Assembly: GCF_057098645.1 (NCBI RefSeq)
Contig: NZ_CM169472.1
DNA: 64,000 nt
Direction: 5' to 3' (one strand)
This document shows positions 51,401 to 54,400 of the stretch, one piece after another. Made by a program: the position numbers. The first letter of the stretch is position 1. Each line of letters starts with the position of its first letter.

Positions 51401-54400
51401 TTCTGGACGGTTACTGGTGGCAATGGAAATTTTGTGATTCGTCAACCTGACGGACTAATCATTCAGATGGTTACTGTAAGTATAAGCGGTCCAGTGGCGA
51501 TGAATGGAATGACTGATAATGCTTATGCCATTACAGGTTCTAATAAGTCTTATATTGCCACAGCCACATTGCCCTTTGTATTTCCTAATAAGGTGCTGGG
51601 CGTTATCCCTCTGGTATCAACAACAGCTTATGGTGGTGTATCCAGTAATATTACAGGTTCATACGCGACGGCGGTTTGTTCTTTTGCCGCTGTCAGGGGG
51701 AATAATACGATTGTGTTCAAAGTCGACAAACCACTGAATGCAGCCTTTCCTTCAGATACCAGCGTCTCAGCGTTAATCATTGGACGGTAAGAATGAACTC
51801 AGTATTCTTTTCACCCGCAAGTAAAAGTTTTTATCTGCAAGAATTGTTTCCAGAATATGAGGATGCGGGAACGCTTCCTGATGATGTTATTGAAATTACC
51901 AGAGAAACATATGAGCAATTTCTTGGGCTGCATCCAGAAGGGAAAGAAATTGGCGCTGACAGTTCAGGACGGCCAATATGGATTAATTCCCCGCCGCCTT
52001 CAAAAGAGGATGAGATGCTGGCGGCTGAAATGAAAAAGATATCTTTGGTTTCAGAAGTCAATACCTACATCAATACCCATCAGTGGCCTGGCAAAGCTGC
52101 TATTGGTCGTCTGAAAGGTTACGAGCTGGAACAATATAATTTATGGCTGGATTATCTGGACGCACTGGAACTGGTTGATACCGCCAGTGCTCCAGATATT
52201 GAATGGCCTACGCCTCCGGTAGTTCAGGCCAGATGACATCCGGCGCGGTGCTGGTATCTGTTGCAGTCACCGCGTCAATGTAATCCAGCACAGCGTTAAG
52301 CCGGGTTGTTTCTGCCTGCGTCAGCTTCCGCCCGGCCTGCAATTTCAGCTGAATCAGACTAATGGAAGCCATAGCAGCATCAATCAGTGACTGGCGCCGT
52401 ACTTCTGCCGCGTCTACTGCGGCGTTATGCTGTGCCTCAGTATCGGTCACCCATTTCTCACCATCCCATTTATCGTATGACGTTAACGGGGCGATAGTGG
52501 TTGTATTTTCAGGGTAATCACCCGGAACTGTGATTTCTTTTGATTTTCCTGTTTCGGTGCTATAGACGATTTCACCGCGATGGTCTGGCACATATTCCCA
52601 TGAGTTAAAATCTGCAGAACGGCAAATTGCATAACCAGCTTTATATGAGCCAGGAGCATCTAAACAGGAACATGCCGGGATACCGACACCCACAGCAAGA
52701 TATTCAGTTGATGTGGAAATATATTCCCGTGTTTCACCATCATAATTATAAACGGTAATGTCTCCGGCCTTTGTGGCGATGAGTTCATTATTTAATACAG
52801 CTTTACTTATCATGCAGCCCTCACAATATAATTAAAGGCGATGTTACGGGAGCGGGTTTCAGATGCTGTGCGAACTGAGCGAGATGCGTCGAATGTCCAG
52901 TTATAAGCGCCATAACCCTCAATAATTTCGGCTTCCTTTAGACCTGTAGATAATACTTGCCCATGTTGACTAAATGGCCCTGAACTAAGTACGTCTCTAA
53001 AAAGCTGGGTACGCCCAAAAGAACCAACAATATTCTGAATTGCATCATTCTGTGCAGATAATAAGTTACGACCAGAGTCAATCCCGCGCCCATCATCCCA
53101 GCCACGAATAAATTCACCGCGTAAATCTGGTAATTTTAATGTTGGGTAAGCCTTTGCCAGATTTGGGTACTTTTCAGAAGAAAATGCTGCTCCGTTACAT
53201 TTTAGCCAGCCCGTTGGTGGTGTTTCTAAGGGCCACGGAACGGGCACACCAACAGGCAGTGCAGAGCCTTCCCCCAAACCAAGGTATGCGAGAAGACCAG
53301 CTACATCCTTTCCACTCAAATGAGTCAGCGTCTCATCCAGCGGTTGTTTACCTGCCAGCGCATTAAGCATTGTCGTGGCAAAGTTCGGGTCATTCCCCAG
53401 CGCTGCCGCCAGTTCGTTCAGTGTATCCAGTGCCGCAGGTGCAGAACCCACCATTGCCGCAATCGCCGATTTCACAAATGCCGTGGTGGCAATCTGTGTA
53501 TTGTTGACCGACTGTGCCGCAGTAGGTGCGGTTGGCGTTCCGGTGAGTGCCGGACTCGACAGCGGCGCTTTCAGTGCCAGCGCATTGTTAATGGTGGTAC
53601 TGAATTTCGGATCATTGTTAATGGCTGCGGCTATTTCTTTCAGCGTGTCCAGCGTGGCTGGCGCACCATTAATAAGAGCCGTCAGAGCCGCCTGAACAAA
53701 CGCGGTGGTCGCAATCTGCGTGGTGTTATTCCCTGCGGCTGGCGTTGGCGCTTTGGGTGTCCCGGTAAACGTCGGACTTTCTTTGGGTGCATACTGTGAA
53801 TGCGGGTCCGGTGCGGCAAGATGTTTTGCCATCTGATCATCCGCGTACACCTTCAGCTCCAGTGCCTTGTCATCCACATACTTGCGGGTTGCCAGCACTA
53901 CGGCAGGGTCGATTTTCAGGGTGATATTGTCCGTGCTGCTGGTAATCAGCACCATGCGCACGGTCTGAGTGCGCCCGCTACCTTCAGCCAGTTGCGGCTT
54001 ATAGCTTTCCGGGCAGTTGCCCACGGCAATCAATGCCCCGGACTCATCAAACAAGCCCACTTCACGTATCCACCAACCGCCCTCGTTTTCAGGGATCACC
54101 TGTTCGGCAATAATCTGGCTGCTGTTCTGCAGGTCGATATAGAGCATATTCAGCGCAGCCCGGCGTTTCTCATTTACCAGTGCAGTCTGCTTTGAGTCTG
54201 GCGTTGGCAATACTCCGCCGCCATCGCCGACCGCCATATGGGTAATTTTTAGCGGCACACCGAGCGCGGCGGCGCTGGCAAGTTTCGCCGCGCCAATATC
54301 CGTCAGCAGGGTATAAAATTTTGTGCTCATGGATTCACTCTCATTGTGTCAATAACATGGACCGCCCCGCCTTCATGCGCGGTGCCGCCAGAAATAATTG

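What the first reader, a model, noticed from the sequence alone, without database searches (positions are those of the whole stretch)
53338..53775. Internal ~70-aa tandem duplication in the constant part of tail fibre H
H residues ~186-257 (TGTPKAPTPAAGNNTTQIATTAFVQAALTALINGAPATLDTLKEIAAAINNDPKFSTTINNALALKAPL) and ~260-331 (TGTPTAPTAAQSVNNTQIATTAFVKSAIAAMVGSAPAALDTLNELAAALGNDPNFATTMLNALAGKQPL) are diverged direct repeats. Repeat-number changes in fibre shafts alter fibre length and are a substrate for recombination.
Basis: seen in the sequence. Interest (0 to 1): 0.25.

Follow-up and report, generated by a model that had tools for sequence, protein, structure and literature searches.

The report
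Known tail-fibre shaft repeat, duplicated
The tail-fibre gene of this P2-like E. coli prophage really does contain two diverged tandem copies of a 74-residue shaft module, but it is an old, widespread feature already annotated in phage P1, so it is ordinary.

Summary
H (window 52810-54330, minus strand, 506 aa) carries two tandem 74-aa units: A (residues 185-258) and B (residues 259-332). They share 46/74 identical residues, 29 SD above shuffled controls.

The duplication is old. DNA identity is 62%, and only 35% at third codon positions. Tandem Repeats Finder detects nothing.

The pair ends 13 residues before the crossover site of a DNA-invertase-switched segment, so it lies in the constant part.

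It matches the 222-nt 'repeated elements b1/b2' annotated in the constant segment of phage P1 gene S (GenBank M81956). A is 81% identical to b1 and B is 84% identical to b2.

Relatives vary in copy number:
- 0 units: Rahnella
- 1 unit: P2 H, and two E. coli prophages with an A/B hybrid unit
- 2 units: the common form
- 3 units: B/A hybrid middle units with two different breakpoints, or A-A-B
- 4 units: Enterobacter

An effect on fibre length is inferred, not shown.

A profile of the unit matches 40,559 protein clusters, with up to 11 copies per protein. No Pfam or NCBIfam model covers it, and no solved structure contains the whole unit.

Verdict: real, already known, low interest.

The parts
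52810..54330 (-). Tail fibre gene H (506 aa) of a P2-like prophage
   Evidence: ORF. Pfam PF12571 covers residues 1-150 and Collar PF07484 covers residues 361-408. The constant part (window 53268-54330) is 99.9% identical to E. coli RM14721, whose gene is annotated 'phage tail-collar fiber domain-containing protein'.
53881..54330 (-). N-terminal domain (residues 1-150), presumed baseplate attachment
   Evidence: PF12571 Phage_tail_fib, E = 1.2e-63, full-length match 1-150/150. The attachment role is inferred from knowledge of the family.
53557..53778 (-). Repeat unit A (residues 185-258, 74 aa, 222 nt)
   Evidence: HMM match 1-74. 81% aa identity to P1 'repeated element b1'.
53335..53556 (-). 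Repeat unit B (residues 259-332, 74 aa, 222 nt)
   Evidence: 84% aa identity to P1 'repeated element b2' and 81% to the single unit of P2 H.
53268..53294 (.). Crossover site inside H (codes ...AYLGLGE...); end of the constant part
   Evidence: Inverted repeat I1, 27 nt, 78% complementary to 51324-51350. Megablast homology of many phages stops at about this point (query position 459-464).
51324..51350 (.). Second crossover site, at the start of the alternative fibre tip
   Evidence: The alternative join 'YLGLGE-AAKRNVG...' is found as the expressed form in E. coli MMC-J-0066 H.
52810..53267 (-). Variable tip of H currently in frame (collar-type receptor-binding region)
   Evidence: Collar PF07484 covers residues 361-408. 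Residues 356-504 match PDB 9cuy 'short tail fiber' (E = 2.2e-21), and residues 356-431 match T4 gp37 2xgf (E = 2.9e-14).
52208..52813 (-). Tail fibre assembly (chaperone) gene for the current tip
   Evidence: ORF. Annotated tfaE in RM14721.
51296..51790 (+). Alternative fibre tip segment (silent orientation)
   Evidence: ORF. The translation 'GLGEAAKRNVGNGENQIPDM...' resembles the tips of P0001 and MMC-J-0066 H.
51793..52236 (+). Second tail fibre assembly gene, paired with the alternative tip
   Evidence: ORF. Annotated 'tail fiber assembly protein' in RM14721.
50702..51268 (-). Serine DNA invertase (Hin/Gin/Cin type)
   Evidence: ORF. Annotated 'recombinase family protein' in RM14721. The gene in the equivalent position in L001 has Resolvase PF00239 plus HTH_7.

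Best explanation
The finding is an ancient tandem duplication of a 74-residue tail-fibre shaft module in the constant part of the P2-type fibre protein H. It is the same A-B pair that is annotated as 'repeated elements b1 and b2' in the constant segment of phage P1 gene S.

The two units sit between the N-terminal domain and the invertase-switched receptor-binding tip. They most likely act as rigid spacer segments of the trimeric fibre shaft. Because the units are in tandem and in register, occasional unequal crossing-over between them adds or removes exactly 74 residues. This yields fibres with 1, 2, 3 or 4 units in otherwise near-identical prophages.

Shown here: the repeat, its age, its position, its identity with P1 b1/b2, copy-number variants with hybrid units, and the wide distribution of the module. 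Inferred: the trimeric spacer role and the effect on fibre length and reach.
For: - Repeat significance and age: 46/74 aa identical, z = 29; 62% nt identity, 35% at third codon positions; no TRF hit.
- Position: crossover sites at 53268-53294 and 51324-51350, plus an adjacent recombinase gene.
- Identity with P1: record M81956 annotates b1 (1783-2004) and b2 (2005-2226), 222 nt each, in 'constant segment, Sc, of gene S'. A/b1 is 81% aa, B/b2 is 84% aa, and b1/b2 is 62.6% nt.
- Copy number: P2 H has one unit. Of the 120 best-scoring homologue clusters, 107 have 2 units, 13 have 3 and 1 has 4; this list is biased towards more units because extra units raise the score.
- Hybrid units at DNA level: in L001 the middle unit is B for nt 1-~139 and A afterwards, and its B part is identical to the next unit. 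L003 and L004 switch at about nt 78. L002 is A-A-B with the two A units 99.1% identical.
- Contraction: E. coli ETEC1717 and MMC-J-0066 have one unit that is A for nt 1-192 and B from nt 205. The switch lies in the longest A/B identity run, 12 nt.
- Zero-unit forms: Rahnella proteins join the N-domain region directly to the tip.
- Module spread: 40,559 representative clusters at E <= 1e-3. One protein has 9 units at an exact 74-aa period, and another has 11 units.
Against: - No structure. No PDB chain contains the whole unit. AlphaFold2 models of the two-unit segment failed, both as a monomer (pLDDT 40) and as three copies joined by linkers (pLDDT 31). The spacer/length role is therefore not demonstrated.
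- High conservation of about 25-30 positions across very distant fibres could also reflect a specific interaction rather than pure spacing.
- The origin of the A-B pair (in situ duplication or juxtaposition by exchange between fibre genes) cannot be resolved from present sequences.
- Frequencies of the 1-, 3- and 4-unit forms were not measured without bias. All 60 best E. coli genome matches to a 3-unit query were 2-unit genes.
Confidence: 0.85

Rival explanations
1. The two units were not duplicated in place. Two already-diverged modules were brought together by recombination between different fibre genes (mosaic assembly).
For: - Fibre genes are strongly mosaic. Homology to many phages stops exactly at the crossover site.
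- The same unit occurs in P1, P2, lambda and Fels-1 fibre genes.
- One group of homologues carries a third, diverged unit inside the variable part.
Against: - The same A-then-B order and the same divergence (about 62% nt) are seen in P1 gene S, so the pair travels as a block.
- Arrays of up to 9-11 in-register units elsewhere make tandem duplication the simplest source.
- Recent in-place changes are directly documented.
Confidence: 0.1
2. The units have a specific function rather than acting as a spacer. Examples: a docking surface for the assembly chaperone or another virion protein, or a weak secondary binding site for the cell surface. Copy number would then tune avidity rather than length.
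For: - Strong conservation of many positions across very distant phages; consensus SPalTGtPtAPT...tQiATTAFV...LDTLnELAaAlGnDpNFatT...KAPL.
- The C-half also occurs in Bxb1 'tail collar fibers' gp4 and in the 80alpha upper fibre protein (FibU), which are accessory fibres.
Against: - Copy number ranges from 0 to 11 in fibres with unrelated tips and hosts.
- The N-half alone repeats up to 22 times. This pattern is typical of structural shaft repeats.
- Zero-unit relatives still have the N-domain and a tip.
Confidence: 0.12
3. The repeat is a recent or ongoing expansion in this genome, for example slippage-driven phase variation of fibre length.
For: Near-identical adjacent units do exist in some relatives: A-A-B with 99.1% nt identity in L002, and A-A-A-B in P0001.
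Against: - In this window the units are 62% identical at DNA level, with a longest identical run of 12 nt.
- TRF finds no array.
- An E. coli RM14721 chromosome has the same 2-unit constant part at 99.9% identity, and the full-coverage rows listed from other E. coli genomes have the 2-unit span.
Confidence: 0.02
4. The similarity is a composition artefact of an Ala/Thr/Asn-rich segment.
For: The region is compositionally biased. A weak offset-37 self-match (score 50) is present.
Against: - z = 29 against shuffles that preserve composition.
- The unit profile recovers in-register copies in thousands of proteins.
- The offset-37 signal is not homology: hhalign of N-half against C-half gives probability 0.2%.
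Confidence: 0.01

Closest known systems
Repeated elements b1/b2 in the constant segment (Sc) of phage P1 tail-fibre gene S (GenBank M81956)
   Same: - Two tandem 222-nt (74-aa) elements in the constant part of an invertase-switched fibre gene.
- Same order: the A-like unit comes first and the B-like unit second.
- A/b1 81% aa, B/b2 84% aa; internal divergence 62-63% nt in both.
   Different: - The N-terminal part of P1 S is unrelated to P2-type H.
- P1 has additional a0/a1 repeats upstream. This H has none and no PF03406 match.
- In P1 about 60 residues separate b2 from the crossover site; here only 13 do.
Phage P2 tail fibre protein H (NP_046775, 669 aa)
   Same: - Same gene order: baseplate genes V-W-J-I upstream, then H, then the tail fibre assembly gene.
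- A B-type unit (81% aa identity) followed by a YLGL-type sequence.
   Different: - P2 H has one unit, not two.
- Upstream of that unit P2 H has two copies of a different ~44-aa repeat (seen in the sequence).
- No invertase gene is annotated downstream of H and G in P2.
- The P2 tip is different.
Invertible fibre-tip systems of Mu (G segment), P1 (C segment), e14 and p15B (Din-family invertases)
   Same: - An adjacent serine invertase.
- Inverted crossover sites, one inside the fibre reading frame.
- Two alternative tips, each with its own assembly gene.
   Different: This is the context of the finding, not the finding itself. The repeat lies wholly outside the invertible segment. The comparison with the Mu, e14 and p15B systems rests on general knowledge and was not tested here.
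Shaft-repeat number variation in other viral fibres (adenovirus fibre shaft; Pfam PF03406 Phage_fiber_2 repeats)
   Same: Tandem in-register structural repeats whose number varies between relatives.
   Different: - The sequence motif is unrelated.
- No Pfam or NCBIfam model matches this unit.
- No solved structure contains the whole unit.

Membership tests
P1 gene S constant-segment repeated elements b1/b2 | Two adjacent 222-nt elements, in frame, in the constant part of the fibre gene upstream of the inversion crossover site | tested here: met
   Units at 53557-53778 and 53335-53556; crossover site at 53268-53294. P1 b1 is 1783-2004 and b2 is 2005-2226.
P1 gene S constant-segment repeated elements b1/b2 | Sequence homology unit by unit (A to b1, B to b2), closer than A to B | tested here: met
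   A/b1 81% aa, B/b2 84% aa, against A/B 62% and A/b2 61%.
P2-type tail fibre protein H | N-terminal PF12571 domain | tested here: met
   E = 1.2e-63, residues 1-150.
P2-type tail fibre protein H | Gene order: baseplate V, W, J, I upstream; tail fibre assembly gene downstream; sheath and tube genes beyond | tested here: met
   ORFs. RM14721 annotation of the same region, whose constant part is 99.9% identical. Pfam families in L001-L003.
Din-family invertible fibre segment | Serine invertase gene adjacent; inverted crossover sites, one inside the fibre ORF; two tips and two chaperone genes in opposite orientation | tested here: met
   The alternative join is observed in MMC-J-0066. Actual inversion in this strain was not tested.
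Pfam PF03406 Phage_fiber_2 repeat | Match to the family model above its cut-off | tested here: not met
   No PF03406 hit in this H or in the isolated two-unit segment, even at E <= 1 to 10.
Trimeric fibre shaft module (structural spacer) | Forms an elongated trimer whose length scales with unit number | tested here: inconclusive
   AlphaFold2 monomer pLDDT 40. Three linked copies gave pLDDT 31. No PDB chain holds the full unit.

The most novel reading that the evidence does not exclude
The 74-residue unit has an N-half (SPxFTGxPxAPT...IATTAFV) and a C-half (APxxLDTLxELAxALxxDPNF...KAPL). It may be a discrete, very widespread fibre building block that has escaped family curation and has no solved structure.

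Its natural 0-1-2-3-4 copy series occurs in P2-like prophages with closely related constant parts. That series could be a tuning knob for fibre reach, for example matching O-antigen or capsule thickness. If so, it offers a ready-made allelic series to test how fibre length affects host range.
Probability: 0.25. Interest if true: 0.35.

Novelty: already known. Interest (0 to 1): 0.15.

Why it matters
It matters little as a discovery. The repeat pair has been annotated in the public phage P1 gene S record (M81956). The constant part that contains it is present in about 17% of complete E. coli genomes: 924 of 5426 genomes match at least 80% of the query.

It has modest practical value:
1. The exact 74-residue register and the mapped crossover points (about nt 0-10, 78, 139 and 193-204 of the unit) show where fibres tolerate insertion or deletion of whole units. 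This is useful for engineering phage or tailocin fibres.
2. The unit is very common (40,559 clusters) yet has no Pfam or NCBIfam model and no solved structure. A family model and a trimer structure would improve fibre annotation.
3. The natural 1-4 unit series could be used to test whether fibre length affects adsorption.

Tried and rejected
- AlphaFold2 on the two-unit segment with a 21-sequence alignment gave pLDDT 40.
- Three copies joined by 60-residue Gly/Ser linkers, to mimic a trimer, gave pLDDT 31.
- Both models are unusable, so no fold search was run. They agree only on a rough pattern per unit: roughly 17-35 non-helical residues followed by three short helices.
- PDB sequence and profile searches found only half-unit matches: Bxb1 gp4 (9d93) for the C-half and cyanophage A4 gp24 (9k09) for the N-half. 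The matching part of the 80alpha upper fibre protein FibU (6v8i) has no density.
- I tested whether the 74-aa unit is itself a duplication of about 37 aa. This was rejected (hhalign probability 0.2%).
- I tried to count 3-unit genes in complete E. coli genomes with a 3-unit DNA query. It failed because the tool joins the two partial matches of 2-unit genes into one full-coverage place. All 60 listed rows were 2-unit (span 611-626 nt for queries of 833-848 nt).
- A search with the N-terminal part alone (residues 1-184), meant to give an unbiased sample, returned mostly truncated proteins from contig ends.
- Literature searches for the motif strings found nothing. The P2 (PMC206541) and P1 (PMC523184) genome papers are not held.
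- The antisense ORFs 53320-53799 (+) and 53375-53695 (+) were dismissed as mirror-strand ORFs with Arg/Cys-rich or Ala-rich translations, not genes.

Full report
**What is at the coordinates.** The finding lies inside a 506-codon ORF on the minus strand (window 52810-54330). Its product has the N-terminal 'phage tail-collar fibre' domain (PF12571, residues 1-150, E = 1.2e-63) and a Collar domain (PF07484, residues 361-408). The ORFs beyond its 5' end (window 54327-56754) look like the P2 baseplate genes I, J, W and V, and a tail fibre assembly gene follows it. The constant part (window 53268-54330) is 99.9% identical to a prophage gene in E. coli RM14721, where it is annotated 'phage tail-collar fiber domain-containing protein' with the same neighbours. 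At least 80% of that constant part is present in 924 of 5426 complete E. coli genomes.

**Check of the observation.** Both quoted peptides are present, at residues 189-257 and 263-331. The full register is 74 residues. Unit A is residues 185-258 (window 53557-53778) and unit B is residues 259-332 (window 53335-53556). They share 46/74 identical residues. The local alignment score is 231, against 36 +/- 6.7 for 2000 shuffles (z = 29). In a self-comparison the 74-residue offset scores 240 and the next best offset scores 50.

**Age of the duplication.** The two units are 62% identical at DNA level: 69%, 82% and 35% at codon positions 1, 2 and 3. Synonymous sites are therefore saturated while the protein is conserved. 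Tandem Repeats Finder sees nothing, and the longest identical DNA run between A and B is 12 nt. This is an old duplication under purifying selection, not a recent expansion.

**Position relative to the switchable tip.**
- A 27-nt inverted repeat pairs 51324-51350 with 53268-53294.
- Between the arms lie the present tip of H and its assembly gene on the minus strand. A second tip segment (51296-51790) and a second assembly gene (51793-52236) lie on the plus strand. A serine recombinase gene sits just outside, at 50702-51268.
- The site inside H encodes ...AYLGLGE. The predicted alternative join, YLGLGE-AAKRNVG..., is found as the expressed form in another E. coli prophage.
- Similarity to many phages stops at this site.
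- The repeat ends 13 residues upstream of the site, so 'constant part' is correct.

**The feature is already annotated in phage P1.** A tblastn search of unit B against phage records hit GenBank M81956, phage P1. That record annotates 'repeated element b1' (1783-2004) and 'repeated element b2' (2005-2226), 222 nt each, inside the 'constant segment, Sc, of gene S'. Translated in the same register:
- b1 is 81% identical to unit A, and b2 is 84% identical to unit B.
- A/B is 62% and A/b2 is 61%.
- b1 and b2 are 62.6% identical at DNA level, the same divergence as here.

The A-B pair is thus the same pair as P1 b1/b2, carried as a block in two otherwise different fibre genes.

**Copy number in relatives.**
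- P2 H itself has a single, B-type unit at residues 256-328.
- Of the 120 best-scoring homologue clusters of the constant part, 107 have two units, 13 have three and one has four. This list is biased towards more units because extra units raise the score.
- The four-unit protein (Enterobacter roggenkampii) is A-A-A-B. Three clusters are A-A-B. Three have a hybrid middle unit. Seven carry a third, diverged unit beyond the crossover site, inside the variable part.
- About 320-residue relatives from Rahnella have no unit at all. In them the N-terminal region joins directly to a collar-type tip or to the crossover-site sequence.

**Evidence for unequal crossing-over.** I fetched the DNA of four three-unit genes and scored every site where A and B differ.
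- L001 (a 4.84-Mb E. coli contig): the middle unit is B-type for nt 1 to about 139 and A-type afterwards. Its B-type part is identical to the following unit.
- L003 and L004: the switch is at about nt 78.
- L002: the first two units are both A-type and 99.1% identical.

These are the expected products of misaligned pairing of A with B, at three or more different points.

The reciprocal product also exists. E. coli ETEC1717 (435-aa H) and MMC-J-0066 (392-aa H) have one unit that is A-type for nt 1-192 and B-type from nt 205. The switch lies in the 12-nt identity run, which is the longest between A and B. In a spread sample of 30 E. coli genome matches, 3 rows had a record span 222-223 nt shorter than the query span. 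I checked two of these three and both are one-unit genes.

The caveat is that the diverged pair recombines rarely. Once two near-identical units arise, as in A-A-B, further change should be easier. That last step is inference.

**What the unit is.**
- A profile of five units matched 40,559 representative clusters at E <= 0.001 and 1,621 at E <= 1e-30.
- Proteins carry up to 11 full units, and one has nine at an exact 74-residue period. The N-terminal half alone repeats up to 22 times in other proteins.
- The consensus from 155 diverse units is SPalTGtPtAPTaa.gtn.tQiATTAFV.aaiaaLv.saP.aLDTLnELAaAlGnDpNFatT.tnaLalKAPLa. The two halves are not related to each other.
- Among cultured phages, unit B or part of it matches 750 records, and 84 of these cover at least 80% of it. 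The matches include P1, P2, lambda and Fels-1 fibre genes; in many mycobacteriophage and Gordonia phage minor tail proteins mainly the C-half matches.
- No Pfam-A or NCBIfam model covers the unit.

**Structure.** No solved chain contains a whole unit.
- The C-half matches Bxb1 'tail collar fibers' gp4 (9d93, E = 3.7e-12).
- The N-half matches cyanophage A4 fibre gp24 twice (9k09). [quoted passage not shown]
- The matching part of the 80alpha upper fibre protein (FibU) gave no density.
- AlphaFold2 failed on the two-unit segment, both as a monomer (pLDDT 40) and as three linked copies (pLDDT 31).

I therefore make no claim about the fold. The role of the unit as a trimeric spacer that sets fibre length is inferred from three things: its position, its dispensability (0-4 copies with the same N-domain family and interchangeable tips), and its array-like behaviour elsewhere.

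**Verdict.** It is nevertheless an ordinary and already annotated feature of enterobacterial phage fibre genes. The small additions made here are:
1. The exact register.
2. The equivalence with P1 b1/b2.
3. A documented 0-4 copy series with mapped hybrid breakpoints.
4. The observation that this very common unit lacks a curated family model and a solved structure.

Interest is low.

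Noticed in passing
window 50702-53294: Complete invertase-switched fibre-tip cassette. It has crossover sites at 51324-51350 and 53268-53294, two alternative tips, two assembly genes, and a serine recombinase gene at 50702-51268. The alternative join is seen as the expressed form in E. coli MMC-J-0066 (L010).
   Followed up: partly
P0008-P0014 (543-aa E. coli H proteins), residues 361-434: A third, diverged copy of the 74-aa unit lies after the crossover-site sequence, inside the variable tip. Inversion would therefore also change unit number in those prophages.
   Followed up: no
P0350, P0357, P0364, P0372 (Rahnella; about 320 aa): Zero-unit relatives. In these the N-terminal region joins directly to a collar-type tip or to the crossover-site sequence, giving very short fibres.
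   Followed up: partly
L004 1-509: In one metagenome contig a TIR_2-domain gene sits directly upstream of baseplate gene V, where the other loci have the P2 R and S tail-completion genes. It may be a defence gene inserted in the prophage.
   Followed up: no
L007 264-968: In E. coli ETEC1717 an IS26 transposase gene lies next to the second assembly gene. No invertase gene or alternative-tip gene is annotated between them, so the switch is probably disabled there.
   Followed up: no
one search hit list (P0271-P0330): Very many database entries for this protein are 'partial', at 270-320 residues. Draft assemblies seem to break at or just after the repeat and the invertible segment, presumably because of mixed orientations in the sequenced population.
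   Followed up: no
window 52810-53267 (H residues 356-504): The current tip is related to a cryo-EM 'short tail fiber' (9cuy, E = 2.2e-21), and its first ~75 residues to the T4 gp37 fragment in 2xgf (E = 2.9e-14). It ends in the conserved NIAFNYIVRAA.
   Followed up: no
L006 (P2 H residues ~173-250); L009 (P1 a0/a1, 1615-1782): P2 H and P1 S carry a second, different repeat (KG.VQLSSATNS.SET.AATPKAVK) upstream of the 74-aa unit. This window's H lacks it. The shafts are therefore assembled from at least two interchangeable repeat types.
   Followed up: partly
window 53320-53799 (+) and 53375-53695 (+): Long antisense ORFs across the repeat, with Arg/Cys-rich or Ala-rich translations. They are mirror ORFs of a GC-rich coding region and not likely genes.
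   Followed up: partly
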